A DNA stretch of 64,000 nt from Alphaproteobacteria bacterium (lineage in GTDB: Bacteria; Pseudomonadota; Alphaproteobacteria; JAAXGF01), in contig CAUVXB020000002.1 in the NCBI GenBank assembly GCA_963555825.3, forward strand, positions 2,272,001 through 2,336,000, written 5' to 3'. The notes beneath the pieces were generated by a model that saw only the letters and a list, made by a program, of their open reading frames with translations, did no database searches and was not told the DNA's origin. How positions within the stretch are numbered: position 1 is the first letter of the stretch; every line of letters starts with the position of its first letter. This document shows, piece by piece, positions 21,203-44,716 of the stretch. The position numbers were made by a program, and so were the translations under genes.

Positions 21203-22068
21203 TACCAGTGAGCGCCTGAATTGACTCTCGGGATATTCATTGATGGCGGATGATGGCGGATTGTGATTCTATGGTCTCCCACCAGATGTGGGGGATGTCA
21301 TGGGATCAGCACTCAAGATACGGGATGATTTGACGCCTTTGGAGCTTCGGCGCTGGGCTCGCGTGGAATCGTACGGTCGAGCGGCGGCGCGGGCCTATGG
21401 GATCGCGAATGCTTTGGAGGAGATGCCCCGGGCTGATGCCGCGCGGCTTGCGGGGATGGATCGCCAAACGCTTCGCGACGCGGTTGTTCGTTACAATGCA
21501 AAGGGATTGGAGGGGCTTCACGACCGTCCAAAGGGCTACTCGCCGCGGCGGCTGACGGCAGACGAGGAAGCGGCGCTGGCGGCGGTCATCATCGCCGGGC
21601 CGGAGCCTGAGCGCGACGGGGTTTGCGCCTGGACCCGGGCCGATCTGTGCCGCTGGCTGGAGGAGCGCTTCGCCAAGACCTACCACCCCTCGAGCATGAC
21701 CCGGGTTCTACGGCGGATGGGATTTTCCCGCCAGAAGGCGCGCCCGAGCCACCCGCGAAGGGACGCCGAAGCGCAGGAGCGCTTCAAAAAAGGGGGCTTC
21801 GCGACATCCTGAAGGCGACCGCCGCGGCGCATCCCGACAAGCGCCTACAGCTGTGGTTTCAGGATGAAGCGCGCGTCGGCAACAAGGGCCGGGTGTGTCA
21901 CCGGTGGTGGCGCAGGGGCGAGCGTGCCCCCGGGACGCGTCAAATCGGCTACCAGTGGGCCTACATCTTCTCCGCCGTGCGCCCGGACACCGGCGACGAC
22001 GTCACCCTGGTGATGCCGAGCGTCAACGCCAAGGTCATGGACCTGTTTCTCGAACACTTCGCCGATAT
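21203..22068 (+). mobile_element. IS630 type A (copy 3), tandem to copy 2, truncated by IS21
   Basis: Starts TACCAGTGAGC 3 bp after copy 2; ends at the IS21 terminus TGTCAATGG. Confidence 0.95.
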
Positions 22069-22259
22069 TGTCAATGGCGGAGCAAAAAGGGACCACCTCG
22101 GCGGTGTAAGAAGGGACCGCTTGGCGGCTGCGGGCTTGTCCCCGTAGTCCACGGGAGGGCCCCGCGCGCGACGCGGCGTGCCCTCAACAGGCTGACGCGG
22201 CGGCGCGCGCGGGAGGGACCTGTGGGCCCACGGGGTCAAGCGTGGGCTGGGTGGTCGGT

Positions 22260-23024
22260 TCAGTTAGCAGTCGGGGTTTGACGCCTGCGGCTCTGGTTGA
22301 GCCTGTAGCTGTCACCGTTCATCTCGAGGATGTTGACGTGGTGGGTGAGGCGATCGAGGAGCGCGCCGGTGAGGCGCTCGGAGCCGAACACCTCGGTCCA
22401 TTCGTCGAAGGGCAGATTGGTGGTGACCAGGGTCGAGCCCCGCTCGTAGCGTTGGCTGAACACCTCGAACAACAGCTCGGCGCCGGTCTTCGACAGCGGC
22501 ACGAAGCCGAGTTCGTCGACGATCAGAAGCTTGTAGGTGGCGAGCTTCTTCTGGAACCTCAGCAGCTGCTTGTCATCGCGGGCCTCGATGAGTTCGTGGA
22601 CCAGCGCGGCGGCGGTGATGAAGCCGACCGAGAGGCCCTTCTGGCAGGCCGCCAGGCCGAGACCGAGGGCGATGTGGGTCTTGCCGGTCCCACTGTTGCC
22701 GAGCGCGATGAGGTTCTCGCGGCGCTCGATGTACTCGCAGCGGGCCAGCTCCAGGACCAGCGCCTTGTTGAGCGAGGGGATGACCTTGAAGTCGAAGCTG
22801 TCGAGGCTCTTGACCACGGGGAAGCGCGCCGCCTTGATGCGCCGCTCGACCATGCGGCGCTCGCGGTCGATCAGCTCGAGCTCGGCGAGTCTCAACAGGT
22901 AGCGGACGTGATCGACGCCTTCCGAGGCGCACTGCCGGGCGATCTTGTCGTACTCGCGCAGGAAGGTCGGCAGCTTCAGCGTCTTGAGGTGGTGGGCGAG
23001 CAGCACTTGCGGTGTGTCGGTCAT
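22260..23024 (-). CDS. istB: IS21 helper AAA+ ATPase
   Basis: [32 protein letters not shown]; ATGA overlap with istA. Confidence 0.95.
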   Translation of the reverse strand: MTDTPQVLLAHHLKTLKLPTFLREYDKIARQCASEGVDHVRYLLRLAELELIDRERRMVERRIKAARFPVVKSLDSFDFKVIPSLNKALVLELARCEYIERRENLIALGNSGTGKTHIALGLGLAACQKGLSVGFITAAALVHELIEARDDKQLLRFQKKLATYKLLIVDELGFVPLSKTGAELLFEVFSQRYERGSTLVTTNLPFDEWTEVFGSERLTGALLDRLTHHVNILEMNGDSYRLNQSRRRQTPTAN

Positions 23025-23699
23025 GCGCCGAGCCCCGACAGCAGGCTCATGTACGACTTGGCGGACGTCATCGCGACCCGGGCGCGCGGCAGATACGGAT
23101 AGACGTCGAGGTTGAGCCTGGGCGGCCGCCGCTCGATGCGGCACAGTACCAGGTGCTTCACCGCATCAAAGCCGATTGCGCCGAGCCGCAGGGCGTCGCC
23201 GACCGCACCCTCGACCTCCTCGAGCCGGAAGGTCTCCAGTAGACGGAGCACCTGGACGTACTCGCGCTTGCCTGCCTTGCCCATACGAGCTTCGAGGAGC
23301 CGCCGCAGAGTGATGAAGGCCTCGGGCAGGTCCCAGCCCGCCAATGGCGCGGCCTGGTCGAGGGCGCCGATCTTCTGCTCGATCAAGGGCAGGTAATGCA
23401 GCGGGTCGAAGATCAGGTCCTCGCTGTCGTAGGACCGGCGGTGCCGGGCGATCACCTCGGCCCCGCAGCTGATCACCACCTCATCGACGTAGCCCCGGAT
23501 GAGCACCTCACGGTGGCCGTAGGCCACGGGCACGGAATAGTCGTTGCTGCGGTAACGCACCAGCGACAGCGAACTCGCCCGTCCAGGGCGCTTATCGCAG
23601 GCATCATAGGGAGCAGGCGGCAATGGCAAGAGAACTTGACGATCCCGCTCGAGACGCTCGCCGATGGTCTCCTTATATGAGGCGTTTGCTGTCAAGGTG

Positions 23700-23989
23700 G
23701 ATTTAATCTACGCCACATGATCGTCTCTTCCATTGGTTATGGCTTTGTATCCAGGGCGGGTCTTGCGATGAGTTCCGTGTTTCGTGCGAGTGATCGCATC
23801 ACCTTATATCCGGCAGCTCCGATCCGGCTTGCCACAATGCTGTATACATGGACCATCACAGGACGGGGATGGGACTAATCTTGTGGACGGCACCTTCGCC
23901 AAGGAGACATGCAGTCACACATCCAACCTGCCAACAAGCGTTCCCATCGGGGAATGAAGCCCGTTAGAACGCTGAGCTGATCCGCAGTC
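23700..23989 (-). ncRNA. Putative bridge/seek RNA of the IS1111-type element
   Basis: Target guides at 23880-23886 and 23901-23908, donor guides at 23803-23809 and 23834-23841; each pair brackets a GGC..GCC hairpin. Transcript ends unknown. Confidence 0.8.
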
Positions 23990-25123
23990 CTATTTGACGA
24001 CAGCACCCACCGGGATCAGCCCGGTTTCCAGATACCGCCAAAGCGCGATCGCCAGTTTGCGGGCCAGGGCGACGATCATGACGCGCCTGATGCGCCCCTT
24101 CTGACCTTGGGTGCGGTCATGGAACCACTGGGTCAGAGCGCTATCGGGTTGATGGCGGACCCAAAGCCATGCGGCTTCGATCATGGCAACCCGTGCCAGC
24201 CGATTGCCCGCCTTGGAGATGCCTTGGCTGCGGCGCCCGTCGCCGCTGTCATAGGCACTGGGCGTGATCCCGATATAGCTTGCCACCTGTCGGCGATTGG
24301 CGAACTGGCGATAATAGACTTCCCGTGCGAGCGTCGTGGATAAGGCCGGGCCGAGGCCCTTTAAGCGCAGCAGCTGGTGACGCTTGCTTTCCGTGGCCAC
24401 ACACGGTGTCGGCGCTTGATCACGCTCACGCTCGACCTCGACGATCTGCGCTTGGACCTGGGCCAGTCTCGCGATCTCCCGCGCGATCTCGCGGCCGAGA
24501 CGGTCCGGCAGGGGTCGGCCGTCTCCGGTGACCAGCGCCGCCGGTGTCAAGGTCTTGTAGCGCGCCTTGACATTGATGCCGCGAATGCCCTGACCGAATA
24601 GCAGACCCTTGATCCGGTTGATGTGGGCGGTTCGCTCGCGGACCAATCGGTCACGTTCCCGATGAGAGCGGCGAAGGTCCTCCTCCGCGACGCTCGGAAT
24701 CACCACCATGGAGCAGACATGACGCTCGCCGCGGCACCAGGCGATCAGCGTATGAAGAATATTCTCGACATCGATGCGGTCGGTCTTCACCCGCCGCGCC
24801 CGGCGGTTGACCCGCAAGCTGGCCGGCTCCATGACCAGACACTCGATGCCGCGCTGCTCGAGGAACCGCGCCAACCAGAAGCCGTCGTAGCCGGCCTCGT
24901 AGCACAGCGTTATCGTCGGCGTTCGACCCGTCACCTTGACCACCCGGTCCCGCGCCGCGTCCAGCTTGGCCATCAGTCCTTCAGCGTCGCCGCCCTTGAT
25001 CGGATGCAAGCTCGGATTGCCCCGCCCCGGAGCCTGGATCGCCAAAAGCCAGCTGTTCTTGCTCAACTCCAGTGCCGCATAAATAGCGTGTTCATTGGAG
25101 GTCGATACCGGAAACTGTGCCAT
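23990..25123 (-). CDS. IS110-family DEDD recombinase
   Basis: ALELSK, CYEAG, KTDRID, GLGP, AYDSG, SKAGN, VALARKL; 377 aa. Confidence 0.95.
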   Translation of the reverse strand: MAQFPVSTSNEHAIYAALELSKNSWLLAIQAPGRGNPSLHPIKGGDAEGLMAKLDAARDRVVKVTGRTPTITLCYEAGYDGFWLARFLEQRGIECLVMEPASLRVNRRARRVKTDRIDVENILHTLIAWCRGERHVCSMVVIPSVAEEDLRRSHRERDRLVRERTAHINRIKGLLFGQGIRGINVKARYKTLTPAALVTGDGRPLPDRLGREIAREIARLAQVQAQIVEVERERDQAPTPCVATESKRHQLLRLKGLGPALSTTLAREVYYRQFANRRQVASYIGITPSAYDSGDGRRSQGISKAGNRLARVAMIEAAWLWVRHQPDSALTQWFHDRTQGQKGRIRRVMIVALARKLAIALWRYLETGLIPVGAVVK

Positions 25124-26162
25124 CGTGTCGCTCCTTCTGATCGAGGTTGAAATAATCGAAGGAGCTTGAGGCTGCGTCCTTCAGCCTCATAGCATCTTGT
25201 GGCCCCGCAGCCGCGCCGCCTGGCGCCGGCGGCACTGTTCGGCGAGAGCATCGTTGAGGGCCGCGAAGCTCTCGGCACGCGGGACGGGGACCAGGAAGTT
25301 CCGCCGGATGAAGCCGACCAGTCCCTCGACCTTGCCCTTGTCGTTGCCCTTGCCCGGCCGGCCGAACCTGTCCTCGAACAGATAGTGGGACTGAAGCTCC
25401 GTGAAGACGCGCGTTCGCTGCCGCTTCCCATCGCCCAGGATCCGGGCAACCGCCAGCTTGGTGTTGTCGTACAGGATGGATCGGGGGACGCCGCCGAAGA
25501 AGGCAAACGCCGCGTTGTGGCCATCGCAGAATGCTTCGGTCGTCTCCGCCGGATAGGCCGCAACAAAGCAACCATCACTGTGGGGAAGGTCGAAGGCAAG
25601 GAAGTGGATCTTCCGTAACGCGCCGCCGATCACCGCCATCGCTTCGCCGAAGTCCGCCTGGGCGTGACCGGGGGAATGGGAGAGTGGCACGAACACCTCA
25701 CGCGACCGAAGCCCCTGCTCACGAACGTAGTCCTTCACGATGGTGTAGCCGCCCGTGAAACCGTACTCGTCCCGGAGGCGGTCGAAGATGCGCTTCGCAG
25801 TGTGCCGTTGCTTGCGGTGGCTGGTCCGATCGTCTTCCAAGATCCGATCGATGATTCCCGTGAACGGACCCAGCTTTGGCCGCCTCGGCGGCGCGCTTCG
25901 GCGATACCCTGGCGGCACCGAGAACGACAGCATCTTACGGACCGTCTTGCGGTCTACACCAAACACCCGCGAGGCCTCGCGGGTGCTCATCCCCTCGACA
26001 TGACACGCCCGCCGAACCCGTGCGTACAACTCCACCCGATACATCCCCCCCGCCTTCCAGTCAGAGCAACCCTGACAGAAGGCTATACGCGGTCCCATTT
26101 TGGTCCGCCGCAGCCGGATCGACCGGCCGCTTCAGTGGGGGATTATTGCTCTGCCCTTCTCA

Positions 26163-40529: not shown

Positions 40530-41586
40530 ACGGCTGAGACGACCAAATAACCAATGACCGGGCCCGACGACGGATCACGATTTTCGCGTGGCGTGTCGCT
40601 CGGCCTCGCGGCCGGTGGGCTGCTCGTCGCTGGTGCCTTGCTGCTGCTCTGCTTGGTATTGCGGGCAAAATTCGCGGGCTGACCGCAGAGCCGGGAGGGA
40701 CGGGTGTCAATGGCGGAGCAAAAAGGGACCACCTCGGCGGTGTAAGAAGGGACCGCTTGGCGGCTGCGGGCTTGTCCCCGTAGTCCACGGGAGGGCCCCG
40801 CGCGCGACGCGGCGTGCCCTCAACAGGCTGACGCGGCGGCGCGCGCGGGAGGGACCTGTGGGCCCACGGGGTCAAGCGTGGGCTGGGTGGTCGGTTCAGT
40901 TAGCAGTCGGGGTTTGACGCCTGCGGCTCTGGTTGAGCCTGTAGCTGTCACCGTTCATCTCGAGGATGTTGACGTGGTGGGTGAGGCGATCGAGGAGCGC
41001 GCCGGTGAGGCGCTCGGAGCCGAACACCTCGGTCCATTCGTCGAAGGGCAGATTGGTGGTGACCAGGGTCGAGCCCCGCTCGTAGCGTTGGCTGAACACC
41101 TCGAACAACAGCTCGGCGCCGGTCTTCGACAGCGGCACGAAGCCGAGTTCGTCGACGATCAGAAGCTTGTAGGTGGCGAGCTTCTTCTGGAACCTCAGCA
41201 GCTGCTTGTCATCGCGGGCCTCGATGAGTTCGTGGACCAGCGCGGCGGCGGTGATGAAGCCGACCGAGAGGCCCTTCTGGCAGGCCGCCAGGCCGAGACC
41301 GAGGGCGATGTGGGTCTTGCCGGTCCCACTGTTGCCGAGCGCGATGAGGTTCTCGCGGCGCTCGATGTACTCGCAGCGGGCCAGCTCCAGGACCAGCGCC
41401 TTGTTGAGCGAGGGGATGACCTTGAAGTCGAAGCTGTCGAGGCTCTTGACCACGGGGAAGCGCGCCGCCTTGATGCGCCGCTCGACCATGCGGCGCTCGC
41501 GGTCGATCAGCTCGAGCTCGGCGAGTCTCAACAGGTAGCGGACGTGATCGACGCCTTCCGAGGCGCACTGCCGGGCGATCTTGTCG

Positions 41587-43006
41587 TGTATCGCACCCGG
41601 TTCCTTGGACACAAGTTTGTCTCATGCGGCGGGCCTGAGTGACATCGCGGTGTGCCACGCCTGACGAGCTTGAGCGGGGCTCAGGTAGCCGTTCTTCTCC
41701 ACGATCCACTGGGCATTGTACTGTTCGACGAACCCGCGGACGGCGTTCCGCAGCTCCGCGATGTTGCGGTAGATGCGGCCATGGATGATCTGTTCCTTGA
41801 GCGTGCGATTGAACCTCTCGGCGACGCCGTTGGTCTGGGGCTGTTCGACGAAGGCGTAGGACGGCTGGATGCCCCAGAACTTGATCTGGTTGGTGAAGTG
41901 GTCCGACAGATACTGGGAGCCGTGATCCATCCGCAAGGCCAGCCCCCGCGCCGCACCGGCGGAGGTCGAGGCATACAGCCTCGCAAGCCCCATGGAGATC
42001 GGCTGAAGGGCGGCGAAGCGGTCGCCTCGCTTGCACACATGCCAGCCGACGCACTCGGCGTTCCAATGCTCGATGGCGGTGAATATCCAGCCCCAGCCGT
42101 CGTCCACCGTGAACACCCGAACGCCGTCCGTGCCCCACATGAGGTTGGGGGCATGGGTGATGATCTCACCGACATGGGGATTTCCGCCACGGCGGCGGCA
42201 GCGATGGGGCGAGAGCAGGTTGTTCTCGCGCATCACCCGGAGCCCCCGCTTGCGGGAAACACGGATGCCACGACAGACCCGAAGCCGAGCCCAGACCTTG
42301 CGGTGTCCCTCGCCCTCCCAGGGGGATGCCTCCAGGTCGGCCTCGATGGCCACCAGCAGAGCCTCGTCCGAGATCGAGGGCTTCGGTCCCCGGCGCTTTG
42401 CTGGTGGGCGCTCAGCGGTGGCCTGCTGCCGGGATTTCATGGCGTAGAACGAGGAACGGGCAAAACCCCAGGCCGCACAGACCCGCTGGAGGCCGTAGGC
42501 CAAACCCGTGCCGGGAGAGGTGGCGGCACTCATCGCCGCGACCTCCGCCGCCCCAAAGGGCCGGACGTCTCCGTCTTGGCCTCCAGCAGTTCCACCTGCA
42601 TGATCAACTCCCCGATCCGCTTCATGGCGATGTCCAGTTCCGCCTTCACCGGATCGCCCTTGCGTTCCTTGAGCGAGGCATCGATCCCGGCGATCGCCTT
42701 CTCACGCCACTGCTCGAGCCGGAAAATCTCCACGCCCAACTGCCGCGACAAAAGTTCCACCGGCTCGCCACGCAAAAGCCGCAGGGCAACCTCACGCTTG
42801 CGCGTCACCGTCCACCGCTGGCCAAGTCCCAGCGGGCCTGCCGGCGAAACCTGGCCCGGGGAAAACGTGGACGAGCCAAGCTCGCCCTCGTTTACCACAG
42901 GCCCATCAACAGCAACTTTGTTCTCAAAATTGTCGGTCATGTTCCGGTCCTCCTTGGACACTTCGATTAAGCCAATTCTGTGTCCAAGGAAATCGGGTCC
43001 GACTCA
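41587..43006 (-). mobile_element. IS3-like two-ORF element (orfA 42530-42940, orfB 41622-42533) with a 14-bp target duplication
   Basis: IRs TGTATCGCACCCGGTTCCTTGGACACA / TGAGTCGGACCCGATTTCCTTGGACACA; GGGCGATCTTGTCG on both sides; WGTDG, MDHGSQY, NGVAERFNRTLKE motifs. Confidence 0.93.
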
Positions 43007-43090
43007 GGGCGATCTTGTCGTACTCGCGCAGGAAGGTCGGCAGCTTCAGCGTCTTGAGGTGGTGGGCGAGCAGCACTTGCGGTGTGTCGG

Positions 43091-44590
43091 TCATGCGCCG
43101 AGCCCCGACAGCAGGCTCATGTACGACTTGGCGGACGTCATCGCGACCCGGGCGCGCGGCAGATACGGATAGACGTCGAGGTTGAGCCTGGGCGGCCGCC
43201 GCTCGATGCGGCACAGTACCAGGTGCTTCACCGCATCAAAGCCGATTGCGCCGAGCCGCAGGGCGTCGCCGACCGCACCCTCGACCTCCTCGAGCCGGAA
43301 GGTCTCCAGTAGACGGAGCACCTGGACGTACTCGCGCTTGCCTGCCTTGCCCATACGAGCTTCGAGGAGCCGCCGCAGAGTGATGAAGGCCTCGGGCAGG
43401 TCCCAGCCCGCCAATGGCGCGGCCTGGTCGAGGGCGCCGATCTTCTGCTCGATCAAGGGCAGGTAATGCAGCGGGTCGAAGATCAGGTCCTCGCTGTCGT
43501 AGGACCGGCGGTGCCGGGCGATCACCTCGGCCCCGCAGCTGATCACCACCTCATCGACGTAGCCCCGGATGAGCACCTCACGGTGGCCGTAGGCCACGGG
43601 CACGGAATAGTCGTTGCTGCGGTAACGCACCAGCGACAGCGAACTCGCCCGTCCAGGGCGCTTATCGCAGGCATCATAGGGAGCAGGCGGCAATGGCAAG
43701 AGAACTTGACGATCCCGCTCGAGACGCTCGCCGATGGTCTCCTTGTGGCCCCGCAGCCGCGCCGCCTGGCGCCGGCGGCACTGTTCGGCGAGAGCATCGT
43801 TGAGGGCCGCGAAGCTCTCGGCACGCGGGACGGGGACCAGGAAGTTCCGCCGGATGAAGCCGACCAGTCCCTCGACCTTGCCCTTGTCGTTGCCCTTGCC
43901 CGGCCGGCCGAACCTGTCCTCGAACAGATAGTGGGACTGAAGCTCCGTGAAGACGCGCGTTCGCTGCCGCTTCCCATCGCCCAGGATCCGGGCAACCGCC
44001 AGCTTGGTGTTGTCGTACAGGATGGATCGGGGGACGCCGCCGAAGAAGGCAAACGCCGCGTTGTGGCCATCGCAGAATGCTTCGGTCGTCTCCGCCGGAT
44101 AGGCCGCAACAAAGCAACCATCACTGTGGGGAAGGTCGAAGGCAAGGAAGTGGATCTTCCGTAACGCGCCGCCGATCACCGCCATCGCTTCGCCGAAGTC
44201 CGCCTGGGCGTGACCGGGGGAATGGGAGAGTGGCACGAACACCTCACGCGACCGAAGCCCCTGCTCACGAACGTAGTCCTTCACGATGGTGTAGCCGCCC
44301 GTGAAACCGTACTCGTCCCGGAGGCGGTCGAAGATGCGCTTCGCAGTGTGCCGTTGCTTGCGGTGGCTGGTCCGATCGTCTTCCAAGATCCGATCGATGA
44401 TTCCCGTGAACGGACCCAGCTTTGGCCGCCTCGGCGGCGCGCTTCGGCGATACCCTGGCGGCACCGAGAACGACAGCATCTTACGGACCGTCTTGCGGTC
44501 TACACCAAACACCCGCGAGGCCTCGCGGGTGCTCATCCCCTCGACATGACACGCCCGCCGAACCCGTGCGTACAACTCCACCCGATACAT
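43091..44590 (-). CDS. istA: IS21 transposase
   Basis: AQADFGE, LYDN, KGKVEGLV, NDYSVP motifs. Confidence 0.95.
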   Translation of the reverse strand: MYRVELYARVRRACHVEGMSTREASRVFGVDRKTVRKMLSFSVPPGYRRSAPPRRPKLGPFTGIIDRILEDDRTSHRKQRHTAKRIFDRLRDEYGFTGGYTIVKDYVREQGLRSREVFVPLSHSPGHAQADFGEAMAVIGGALRKIHFLAFDLPHSDGCFVAAYPAETTEAFCDGHNAAFAFFGGVPRSILYDNTKLAVARILGDGKRQRTRVFTELQSHYLFEDRFGRPGKGNDKGKVEGLVGFIRRNFLVPVPRAESFAALNDALAEQCRRRQAARLRGHKETIGERLERDRQVLLPLPPAPYDACDKRPGRASSLSLVRYRSNDYSVPVAYGHREVLIRGYVDEVVISCGAEVIARHRRSYDSEDLIFDPLHYLPLIEQKIGALDQAAPLAGWDLPEAFITLRRLLEARMGKAGKREYVQVLRLLETFRLEEVEGAVGDALRLGAIGFDAVKHLVLCRIERRPPRLNLDVYPYLPRARVAMTSAKSYMSLLSGLGA

Positions 44591-44716
44591 CCCCCCCGCC
44601 TTCCAGTCAGAGCAACCCTGACAGAAGGCTATACGCGGTCCCATTTTGGTCCGCCGCAGCCGGATCGACCGGCCGCTTCAGTGGGGGATTATTGCTCTGC
44701 CGTTCTCAGACGGGGC

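What the first reader, a model, noticed from the sequence alone, without database searches (positions are those of the whole stretch)
23675..25195. IS1111-type element with a readable bridge/seek RNA programmed against IS21 istA; an empty target remains 20 kb away
Seen: the empty site GTCTC-CTT-GTGG is at 43737-43748, and the circle junction would be AGCAT-CTT-ATAT. The 3' non-coding region holds two modules of the same design. One is CTTGTGG-ac-GGC..GCC-AAGGAGAC (23880-23908), whose segments match opposite strands of the target exactly (7/7 and 8/8) and both include the CTT core. The other is CTTATAT-cc-GGC..GCC-ACAATGCT (23803-23841), matching the junction 7/7 and 6/8. A TTGACA points out of the right end, and the first RuvC-fold acidic residue is E (LELS) rather than D. 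Known: IS110/IS1111 recombinases use such RNAs with target and donor loops. Inferred: this is an RNA-guided recombinase with a 3-bp core that targets a coding sequence of another IS, and it is a candidate programmable system.
Basis: partly seen in the sequence, partly recalled or inferred. Interest (0 to 1): 0.88.

Follow-up and report, generated by a model that had tools for sequence, protein, structure and literature searches.

The report
RNA-guided insertion sequence nested in IS21
This is a 1.5-kb IS110-family insertion sequence that carries its own guide RNA, which steers it mainly into one spot of another, highly multiplied insertion sequence: a clear new example of a mechanism described in 2024.

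Summary
Window 23675-25195 is a 1521-bp IS110-family element with its transposase on the minus strand, inserted in IS21 istA. An intact istA with the empty 12-mer lies at 43737-43748.

The genome holds 11 full copies. Seven sit in the identical IS21 site. Four sit in unrelated DNA that shares at least 11 of the 12 target bases. Of 79 IS21 copies, 69 are still empty.

The 3' non-coding region has two modules of one design: a 7-nt guide, a hairpin and a second 7-nt guide. In relatives (49-89% protein identity) the target-loop guides change together with the flanks. Own-flank match is 4.58 of 5, against 1.84 of 5 for other loci's flanks. The stem closing the target loop shows compensatory changes in 6 of 8 pairs. 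The donor-loop guides follow changes in the element's ends.

- The shared core is 2 bp (CT, as in IS621), not 3 bp.
- 'Programmed against IS21' is not shown. IS21 is the most common site, not a better match than the others.
- Assignment to the IS1111 subgroup rests on layout only. In the tree the clade is a separate long branch.

Glu at the first catalytic position is real: present in 62 of 62 relatives that have a residue at that position.

Verdict: a new member of a known kind. No RNA or circle evidence was obtained.

The parts
23675..25195 (-).
   Evidence: 11 full copies in the genome at 99.87-100% identity with sharp ends. RNA-library contigs carry the form without it: the joint runs 23671 to 25196, skips 1524 bases and is ambiguous by 3 letters.
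23990..25123 (-). Transposase/recombinase gene, 377 aa, with Glu19-Glu76-Asp115-Asp118 and the Ser of the YDSG motif
   Evidence: Pfam PF01548 and PF02371. NCBIfam NF033542 'IS110 family RNA-guided transposase', 204.4 bits against a cut-off of 140. The C-terminal domain aligns to IS621 and ISCro4 PDB chains. Catalytic columns come from alignment with paralogues of the same genome.
25124..25195 (-). Short 5' non-coding end (72 nt), including the subterminal repeat arm at 25184-25191
   Evidence: The end is conserved in relatives.
23675..23989 (-). Long 3' non-coding end (315 nt) that encodes the guide RNA
23868..23923 (-). Target-binding module: closing stem, internal loop with both guides, and upper hairpin
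   Evidence: Closing stem at alignment A1 columns 38-48 with 103-111. 6 of 8 pairs show changes on both sides and 97.1% of cells are paired. Whole-structure controls with the 3' partner slid by 1-3 columns pair 32-49%.
23902..23908 (-). 5' target guide, RNA GUCUCCU (5 nt of flank plus the 2-nt core). A possible 2-nt extension reaches 23910.
   Evidence: Complementary to the flank next to the element's 3' end. It covaries with that flank in relatives: the longest Watson-Crick run averages 6.24 with the locus's own flank and 3.01 with other flanks, over 21 loci.
23880..23886 (-). 3' target guide, RNA CCACAAG (5 nt of flank plus the 2-nt core)
   Evidence: Identical to the flank next to the element's 5' end. 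In relatives it matches the own flank at 4.58 of 5 non-core positions, against 1.84 of 5 for other flanks, over 19 loci.
23803..23841 (-). Donor-binding module: 5' guide AGCAUUG (23835-23841), hairpin (23812-23833), 3' guide AUAUAAG (23803-23809)
   Evidence: The 3' guide matches the element's 3' end plus core 7/7. The 5' guide matches 5 nt of the 5' end but not the core. Both follow changed ends in distant relatives: ATATA-AG becomes ATATG-AG, and ATGCT becomes ATCCT or ATTCC. The hairpin is invariant in 26 sequences.
23786..23797 (-). Small hairpin 3' of the donor module
   Evidence: A1 columns 185-188 with 193-196. One pair covaries: AU in 12 sequences, CG in 9.
23690..23695 (-). Outward-facing TTGACA. 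In the joined circle it lies 17 nt upstream of GATGCT from the other end.
   Evidence: Read from the junction computed. TTGACA and its distance to the end are conserved in 7 of the 8 closest relatives whose right end was aligned (L021 reads TTGACT), while neighbouring bases vary. No sigma-70-like site was found in the linear element.
23676..23683 (.). Subterminal inverted repeat arm (TATGAGGC); its partner is at 25184-25191
   Evidence: The first 6 bp are conserved at both ends in relatives. An 8-bp inverted repeat alone is not above chance here: 47 pairs of 8 nt or more were found in the element.
22069..26162 (-). The host IS21-family element (about 2.57 kb without the insert); istA is split at 23674/25196 and istB lies at 22260-23144
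   Evidence: Extent comes from multi-copy BLAST boundaries. Transposase and istA lie on the same strand.
43737..43748 (+). Empty target site inside an intact istA (43091-44644)
   Evidence: It is one of 69 empty sites in the genome.

Best explanation
This is an active or recently active IS110-family insertion sequence with the IS1111-style layout: a short 5' end and a long 3' end.

Its 3' non-coding region is transcribed with, or after, the recombinase gene into a bridge/seek RNA of about 150 nt. That RNA has two internal loops of one design.

In the target loop, GUCUCCU pairs with one strand of the target and CCACAAG with the other. The two overlap on a 2-bp core, giving a 12-bp site, GTCTC-CT-TGTGG.

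In the donor loop, AUAUAAG and AGCAU(UG) read the two ends of the element, joined in a circle across the same CT core.

[quoted passage not shown] It would exchange strands at the core and insert the circle in one orientation.

In this genome the 12-mer happens to lie in istA of an IS21-family element present in 79 copies. Most insertions therefore land there and split istA.

Shown here: the anatomy, the copy and site census, guide-flank and guide-end covariation, and stem covariation. Inferred from published relatives: the RNA itself, the circle, the junction promoter and the chemistry.
For: Family: NF033542, 204 bits against a cut-off of 140; two Pfam domains; the C-terminal domain aligns to IS621 and ISCro4.

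Activity: 11 full copies, 8 of them identical.

Specificity: 7 of 11 copies lie in the same IS21 site. The other 4 lie in unrelated DNA and share at least 11 of the 12 target bases.

Guides: over 19 loci the 3' guide matches its own flank at 4.58 of 5 positions, against 1.84 of 5 for other flanks. Over 21 loci the 5' guide gives a mean Watson-Crick run of 6.24 with its own flank, against 3.01 with others. At least 10 different target types were read.

Structure: the guides sit in an internal loop. Its closing stem has 6 of 8 pairs with compensatory changes. Overall 95.9% of cells are paired, against 32-49% when the partner is slid; no shuffle of 500 reached the observed paired fraction or covariation score.

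Donor loop: guides follow changed ends in subgroups at about 52-59% identity.

Design symmetry: every guide is 5 nt plus 2 core nt.

Order of matches: the guide complementary to the top strand lies 5' of the guide complementary to the bottom strand. This is the order reported for IS1111-type seekRNAs (PMC11187229, sections 9 and 12).
Against: - No RNA, circle junction or recombination was observed. The only runs available were contigs, which cannot show them.
- The whole 3' region folds no better than shuffles: z = +0.95, and 83 of 100 shuffles fold at least as well.
- Rfam has no match.
- The donor loop's closing stem is unproven: 3 candidate pairs, none compensatory. Its hairpin is invariant, so covariation says nothing about it.
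- The donor 5' guide does not pair with the core. It also mismatches the end in some relatives, for example L037, L043 and L025.
- Several relatives show 1-2 mismatches between guide and flank.
- Occupancy is low. 69 of 79 IS21 sites are empty, as are 31 non-IS21 sites scoring 13 or more of 16; by my count 12 of those 31 are the element's own guide-coding DNA.
- The first catalytic Asp, essential in IS621 (PMC11208158), is Glu here.
- The junction -10 hexamer is weak, 3 of 6.
Confidence: 0.88

Rival explanations
1. The IS21-borne copies did not arise from repeated RNA-guided hits. One insertion into IS21 was then spread passively, as an IS21::IS composite mobilised in trans by intact IstA/IstB. 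On this view IS21 is an accidental carrier and not the element's programmed target.
For: - The 7 occupied IS21 copies lie at 7 different loci with near-identical IS21 arms, as composite transposition would give.
- 9 of the 10 copies flagged occupied carry the majority IS21 haplotype.
- IS21 matches only 13 of 16 readable positions, and 3 of 4 non-IS21 sites match the 2-nt guide extension that IS21 lacks.
- Relatives target other sequences.
Against: - The 12-mer is a perfect match to both 7-nt guides, so direct insertion is expected.
- One copy flagged occupied shares a minor IS21 haplotype with an empty copy. That hints at a second event, but it rests on a single base.
- Four independent non-IS21 insertions show the element does find this motif by itself.
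- IS21 copies are too alike for the data to separate the two routes.
Confidence: 0.35
2. The element belongs to a lineage separate from the IS1111 group proper, and may be a subfamily of its own. On this view the 3' location of the RNA is convergent or ancestral, so 'IS1111-type' is a description of layout and not membership.
For: - In the tree the clade is a separate branch of length 3.17 with 100/100 support. It lies outside the 94/95 clade that holds IS4321 and four long-3'-end or unlabelled types of the same genome.
- Identity to IS4321-family proteins is 23.6-24.0% over residues 58-362.
- The protein is 377 aa, against 330-350 reported for IS1111 transposases (PMC11187229, section 6).
- Glu stands at the first catalytic position, and about 15 aa are inserted after the first strand.
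Against: - The layout criteria used in print are met: long right end, short left end, RNA in the right end, and an 8-bp subterminal repeat within the published 7-17 bp range (PMC11208160, passages).
- The order of the two target matches is the IS1111 order (PMC11187229).
- The only long-5'-end type available (tE) is the most distant row.
- The tree has one named IS1111 anchor and one long-5'-end anchor, is rooted at the midpoint, and carries a long-branch warning.
Confidence: 0.4
3. The two modules are not RNA guides. Site choice is made by the protein, or the modules are relics of earlier junctions carried inside the element.
For: No RNA was observed. The 3' region as a whole is no more stable than shuffles.
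Against: - The half-sites lie on opposite strands around a hairpin, inside a stem with compensatory changes.
- They change with the flanks in at least 10 target types while the protein-coding part stays related.
- The same design is experimentally proven in relatives (PMC11187229; PMC11208160).
Confidence: 0.03

Closest known systems
IS1111-group elements with a seekRNA (ISEc11, ISPa11, ISKpn4, ISPst6; Siddiquee et al. 2024, PMC11187229, sections 6, 9, 10, 12-14 read)
   Same: - The non-coding region lies downstream of the transposase gene.
- Subterminal inverted repeats are present.
- Two short matches to opposite strands of the target overlap at the insertion point, with the top-strand match 5' of the bottom-strand match.
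- Natural retargeting among relatives works by changing only those stretches.
- A promoter is formed at the circle junction.
- The target module with its stems (56 nt, or about 88 nt with the outer stem) falls in the range of the 70-100-nt short seekRNA. Target plus donor modules (about 150 nt) match the 145-170-nt long form.
   Different: - The protein is 377 aa rather than 330-350.
- Glu replaces the first catalytic Asp.
- The motif reads G-I-T-P----SG instead of GL-P----S(t)G.
- Identity to IS4321-family proteins is only about 24%, and the element is not nested with IS4321 in my tree.
- The subterminal repeat is only 8 bp.
- Nothing was tested experimentally here.
IS621 and other IS110-group bridge recombinases (Durrant et al. 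2024, PMC11208160; Hiraizumi et al. 2024, PMC11208158; passages read)
   Same: - Two internal loops are present, the target loop first and the donor loop second.
- Each loop holds two guides that read opposite strands and overlap on a CT core dinucleotide.
- A RuvC-like domain is combined with a C-terminal domain carrying a catalytic Ser. The C-terminal domain aligns to 8wt6 at E 7e-8.
- Donor ends are more conserved than targets.
   Different: - The RNA lies in the 3' end, not the 5' end.
- With the core read as CT, the gene and RNA point the opposite way from IS621.
- All four guides have the same 5+2 length.
- The donor 5' guide never pairs with the core in the 26 aligned sequences.
- Glu stands in place of D11.
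ISEc21, an IS110-family element that inserts in a conserved stretch of IS3-family transposase genes (PMC11187229, section 12)
   Same: An RNA-guided IS whose natural target lies inside the transposase coding sequence of another IS family, so that it disrupts that gene.
   Different: - ISEc21 has its RNA upstream, with the opposite guide order.
[quoted passage not shown]
- Here the site lies between the catalytic and C-terminal domains of IstA of one IS21 element. I did not test whether it is conserved in other IS21 members.
IS4321/IS5075, which target the terminal repeats of Tn21-family transposons (title in the reference list of PMC11208160 only; paper not read)
   Same: An IS1111-group element that specialises on another mobile element.
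   Different: The target there is a terminal repeat, not a coding sequence. The protein is only about 24% identical.

Membership tests
IS110 family RNA-guided transposase (NCBIfam NF033542; Pfam PF01548 + PF02371) | Whole-protein score above the curated cut-off | tested here: met
   204.4 bits against a cut-off of 140; residues 15-368 on profile positions 1-341 of 343. Both Pfam domains score above their cut-offs.
IS110 family RNA-guided transposase (NCBIfam NF033542; Pfam PF01548 + PF02371) | DEDD catalytic tetrad in the RuvC-like domain | tested here: not met
   The first position is Glu19, not Asp. It aligns with the D of G-x-D-x-x-K in 9 canonical paralogues of the same genome, and a tenth paralogue (the tG type, AIEISRK) also has Glu. 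It falls at the same profile position 5, my reckoning. Glu is present in 62 of the 65 aligned rows; the other 3 are gaps. Glu76, Asp115 and Asp118 are present. The chemistry may well be kept, but the letter of the motif is not.
IS110 family RNA-guided transposase (NCBIfam NF033542; Pfam PF01548 + PF02371) | C-terminal domain with catalytic Ser in a G--P----SG motif | tested here: met
   GITPSAYDSG aligns to the YESGSS stretch of IS621 and ISCro4 and to the matching column of the paralogues.
IS110 family RNA-guided transposase (NCBIfam NF033542; Pfam PF01548 + PF02371) | Non-coding RNA with target- and donor-binding loops whose guides covary with the DNA | tested here: met
   The RNA itself was not observed.
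IS110 family RNA-guided transposase (NCBIfam NF033542; Pfam PF01548 + PF02371) | CT core dinucleotide at both junctions | tested here: met
   CT (AG in gene orientation) lies at both junctions of all 11 copies and of the closer relatives. Subgroup L030-L044 reads AA at one junction; this is unexplained.
IS110 family RNA-guided transposase (NCBIfam NF033542; Pfam PF01548 + PF02371) | Circular intermediate with a junction promoter | not testable with these tools
   Only a sequence reading is possible: TTGACA, 17 nt, then GATGCT across the computed junction. Contigs showed no circle joint, and they could not show one.
IS1111 group | Long right (3') end and short left (5') end, with the RNA in the right end | tested here: met
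   315 nt against 72 nt, with both modules in the 3' end.
IS1111 group | Subterminal inverted repeats of 7-17 bp | tested here: inconclusive
   An 8-bp repeat lies 4 and 2 nt from the ends, and its first 6 bp are conserved in relatives. Repeats of 8 bp are common in the element by chance: 47 pairs were found.
IS1111 group | Top-strand match 5' of bottom-strand match in the RNA | tested here: met
   GUCUCCU (complementary to the top strand in gene orientation) precedes CCACAAG. The criterion is from PMC11187229, sections 9 and 12.
IS1111 group | Transposase groups with IS1111-type transposases; length 330-350 aa | tested here: not met
   377 aa. The clade is a separate 100/100 long branch outside the clade holding IS4321. 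The tree has few anchors, so the placement is weak evidence against membership, not proof.

The most novel reading that the evidence does not exclude
The element represents a deep, so far uncharacterised clade of bridge recombinases. The clade has Glu in place of the essential first Asp, an extra hairpin of about 15 aa after the first strand, and an IS1111-style 3' RNA with four equal 5+2 guides.

In this genome the element acts as a parasite of a parasite: it knocks out istA copies of an IS21 element that has expanded to 79 copies.
Probability: 0.3. Interest if true: 0.55.

Novelty: new member of a known kind. Interest (0 to 1): 0.4.

Why it matters
RNA-guided recombination by IS110/IS1111 elements is only about two years old as a field. 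Useful orthologues are still few.

This clade offers many natural retargetings in which both loops can be read against their DNA. It has a very regular guide design, a natural Asp-to-Glu change at a residue that is essential in IS621, and a genome with 79 identical targets of which about one in eight is filled. That is good material for measuring specificity and efficiency, and for asking whether such elements restrain other insertion sequences. It does not change the known mechanism.

Tried and rejected
- Whole-region folding of the 3' end gave a structure no more stable than shuffles and did not show the modules. The comparative fold replaced it.
- Rfam found nothing at E up to 1.
- A closing stem for the donor loop (A1 columns 136-138 with 183-185) pairs in 89.7% of cells but has no compensatory change, so I leave it open.
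- I checked whether the last bases of the donor 5' guide read the target after integration. This fits in this element only and does not follow the targets of relatives, so I rejected it as coincidence.
- A 3-bp core is rejected.
- IS21 haplotypes were used to separate independent hits from composite spread. IS21 copies are too alike: 67 of 73 comparable arms share one haplotype, so the test was inconclusive.
- Scoring of all genomic sites against a 16-nt ideal gave no clean threshold between filled and empty sites.
- Sequencing runs: all four laid runs are contigs from RNA libraries. They hold the element and the empty-site form. Run X17 has contigs only over 23671-24067, which is the 3' non-coding end and the gene's last bases. 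No contig showed a circle joint. By the tool's own caveats none of this shows transcription, absence or a circle, and I draw nothing from it.
- An N-terminal fragment searched alone against Pfam gave only a chance match.
- Two literature searches found nothing relevant. 'EEDD' with 'IS110' returned 0 papers. IS110/IS21/istA/bridge RNA returned 15 papers, of which I read the 10 listed titles, none on this case. These searches do not show that the clade is undescribed.
- ISfinder and the papers' supplements could not be seen. Supplementary Table 5 of PMC11208160 and the supplementary trees of PMC11187229 may already list members of this clade.
- Rows dropped:
  - From alignment A1 I left out L014 and L017 (cut or disrupted after the donor hairpin), and L027, L032, L035 and L039 (identical to kept rows). 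L033 was also out: no donor-hairpin motif was found.
  - L045-L092 were not in A1. The donor-hairpin motif used to place the region was found in 31 of the 80 loci, plus one spurious hit in L060.
  - Of L045-L092 I read by eye only subgroups L080 (7 copies), L066 (5 copies) and L072 (3 copies).
  - The tree used 25 rows of my choosing: 13 of the 65 aligned rows of the element's family (the window's own protein and 12 relatives).
- No structure prediction, complex prediction or protein database search beyond those cited was run.
Full report
WHAT IS THERE

The stretch 23675-25195 is a discrete element. On the minus strand it has 72 nt of leader, a 377-aa ORF (25123..23990) and 315 nt of non-coding tail.

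The protein has Pfam Transposase_20 and DEDD_Tnp_IS110. It scores 204.4 bits on NCBIfam NF033542, 'IS110 family RNA-guided transposase', against a cut-off of 140. Its C-terminal domain aligns to the solved IS621 and ISCro4 recombinases.

The element splits the istA gene of an IS21-family element, whose istB lies downstream. That host element runs from about 22069 to 26162 and is about 2.57 kb without the insert. Transposase and istA are on the same strand. A second IS21 copy in the window has an intact 517-aa istA with the uninterrupted 12-mer at 43737-43748.

CENSUS IN THE GENOME

The genome (two contigs, 6.04 Mb) has 11 full-length copies. Eight are identical, two are at 99.93% and one at 99.87%. 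There are also several truncated or rearranged copies.

Seven of the 11 lie in the identical IS21 site. Four lie in unrelated DNA whose reconstructed sites share at least 11 of the 12 bases. Three of those four also share 2 further bases that the RNA could read.

The exact 12-mer occurs 69 times uninterrupted, always in IS21 context. The IS21 left flank occurs 79 times:
- 69 times followed by the empty site;
- 8 times followed by the element;
- once by a 4-nt remnant followed by other DNA;
- once by a variant site.

The right flank occurs 77 times, 9 of them preceded by the element. So about 9-10 of 79 IS21 copies are filled. The seven filled copies with a complete element lie at seven different loci.

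THE RNA: COMPARATIVE EVIDENCE

Scanning one genome per species found 405 stretches that encode relatives; the best 80 were kept, at 49-89% identity. In 31 of those 80 the donor hairpin is recognisable by sequence.

Aligning the 3' tails and the 5' ends shows that the ends and the donor module are conserved. The two 7-nt stretches of the target module differ from element to element, and they differ in step with the flanking DNA.

Over 19 loci with a readable 5'-side flank, the 3' guide equals its own flank at 4.58 of 5 non-core positions on average (13 loci at 5, 4 at 4, 2 at 3). Against flanks of other loci the figure is 1.84 of 5 (314 comparisons). Over 21 loci with a readable 3'-side flank, the longest Watson-Crick run between the 5' loop strand and its own flank averages 6.24, against 3.01 for other flanks (364 comparisons). 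The loci are related and several share a target, so these are not independent trials. Even so, at least ten different target types are represented.

A more distant subgroup with 7 copies in one genome (about 52% identity) shows the same design with new letters in both loops. Its 5' target guide reads the conserved flank. Its 3' target guide reads the conserved last 4-5 bases of otherwise unrelated left flanks. Both donor guides have changed together with the element's ends.

STRUCTURE

On 26 non-identical sequences RNAalifold places the target guides in an internal loop, between a closing stem and a short hairpin.

Counting a structure I wrote out from that prediction, with one added pair, gave these results. 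95.9% of cells are paired, against 85.5% in shuffles. Sliding the 3' partner by 1-3 columns gives 32-49%. 13 of 30 pairs have changes on both sides, and 6 of those are among the 8 pairs of the closing stem.

The donor hairpin never varies, so covariation neither supports nor contradicts it. A closing stem for the donor loop is not established.

The whole tail is no more stable than shuffled sequence, and Rfam has no family for it.

THE CORE IS 2 BP

In this element both junctions read CTT, and the empty site has one CTT, so 2 or 3 bp are equally possible here. In four target types among the relatives (L015, L019, L025, L026) the junctions share only the two bases AG (CT on the other strand). 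The third base is the invariant last base of the element.

With a 2-bp core all four guides have the same 5+2 layout, and the site is 5+2+5 = 12 bp. This agrees with the CT core of IS621 (PMC11208160 and PMC11208158, passages read).

The donor 5' guide pairs with 5 nt of the end but never with the core in the 26 sequences. I cannot say why.

In subgroup L030-L044 one junction reads AA instead of AG, and the guide register seems shifted by one. This is unexplained.

THE PROTEIN

Glu19 stands where canonical family members have the first Asp. The column is Glu in 62 of 65 aligned rows, and the other 3 rows are gaps. It aligns with the Asp of nine canonical paralogues from the same genome; a tenth paralogue (tG) also has Glu there. 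In IS621 that Asp (D11) is essential (PMC11208158). The clade also has about 15 extra residues after the first strand.

In a tree of 25 rows the clade is a separate long branch (100/100). It lies outside the clade that holds IS4321 and several long-3'-end types of this genome. The one long-5'-end type is the most distant row. The anchors are few and the program warns of long branches, so subgroup membership stays open. By layout the element is IS1111-like.

IS IT AIMED AT IS21?

The 12-mer in istA is a perfect match to both 7-nt guides, so IS21 is a legitimate target. It is not a better match than the other filled sites: 13 of 16 readable positions, against 13-14 for the others. Most IS21 copies are empty, and the relatives aim at other sequences, several of them inverted repeats (my reading).

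The filled IS21 copies could also have multiplied as composites, moved by IstA and IstB from intact copies. IS21 copies are too uniform to decide.

I conclude that IS21 is the commonest landing site because it carries the motif 79 times. The split of istA is a real consequence. 'Programmed against IS21' is not shown. A published precedent for an IS110-family element that targets another IS's transposase gene exists: ISEc21 in IS3-family genes (PMC11187229, section 12).

EXPRESSION

No sigma-70-like promoter was found inside the linear element. Across the computed circle junction a conserved TTGACA lies 17 nt from GATGCT. This resembles the junction promoters reported for this family (PMC11187229). 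Read-through from istA is also possible, since the genes are co-oriented.

Public runs gave only contigs. These hold both the filled and the empty form but cannot show an RNA or a circle.

VERDICT

The main inference, an RNA-guided IS110-family element with readable target and donor guides, is well supported by covariation. Three details are corrected: the core length, the aim at IS21, and the subgroup. It is a new, well-documented member of a known kind, in a clade with an unusual Glu at the first catalytic position.

Noticed in passing
window 22069-26162 and 40.9-44.7 kb; genome-wide: An IS21-family element of about 2.57 kb is present in about 79 nearly identical copies in a 6.04-Mb genome. 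That is a very large expansion of a single IS.
   Followed up: partly
window 40896-43090: In the IS21 copy with the intact istA, istB is cut short (238 aa instead of 294). Two minus-strand ORFs of 303 and 143 aa lie between it and istA. This looks like another IS inserted in istB. The domains were not checked.
   Followed up: no
window 21800-22068: The 268 bp next to the IS21 end are themselves repeated 72 times in the genome. This is another multi-copy element, or a preferred IS21 landing site.
   Followed up: no
genome G000, e.g. C2:2828250-2829341: The genome has 56 matches to the IS110-family model, falling into at least 8 types. They include a second, single-copy type with Glu at the first catalytic position (AIEISRK) that groups with this clade. 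Most types have the long 3' end; one has the long 5' end.
   Followed up: partly
G000 C1:1251402-1251631, and one IS21 site followed by only 4 nt of the element: The same foreign sequence (starting GTAAGCG) interrupts the element at two different positions. It is probably the end of yet another mobile element. The C1 copy also differs in the outermost 100 nt of the tail, with a compensatory change in a small hairpin.
   Followed up: no
G000 C2:1618223-1619456 and C2:1500115-1501529: There are two rearranged copies. One is joined to IS21 sequence about 90 bp beyond the empty site and lacks everything 3' of the middle of the target loop. The other has a chimeric IS21/tail junction and a variant site with 2 extra bases.
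   Followed up: no
loci L030-L044 (relatives at 56-59% identity): The junction at the element's 3' end reads AA where the others read AG, while the other junction keeps AG. The 5' guide pairs in a register shifted by one. This may reflect a tolerated first core base, or different ends.
   Followed up: partly
loci L013, L014, L016, L021; L080 and L066 groups: Several relatives sit in inverted repeats, with a stem on both sides of the insertion point. This resembles the REP or terminator-like targets known for this family (my reading).
   Followed up: no
three of the four non-IS21 insertion sites, G000 C2:800125, 1503420, 3498615: Read on the other strand, the extended target is AAGGAGACAT, a Shine-Dalgarno-like string. 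At C2:800125 an ATG follows 8 nt later. Whether these insertions sit at gene starts was not checked.
   Followed up: no
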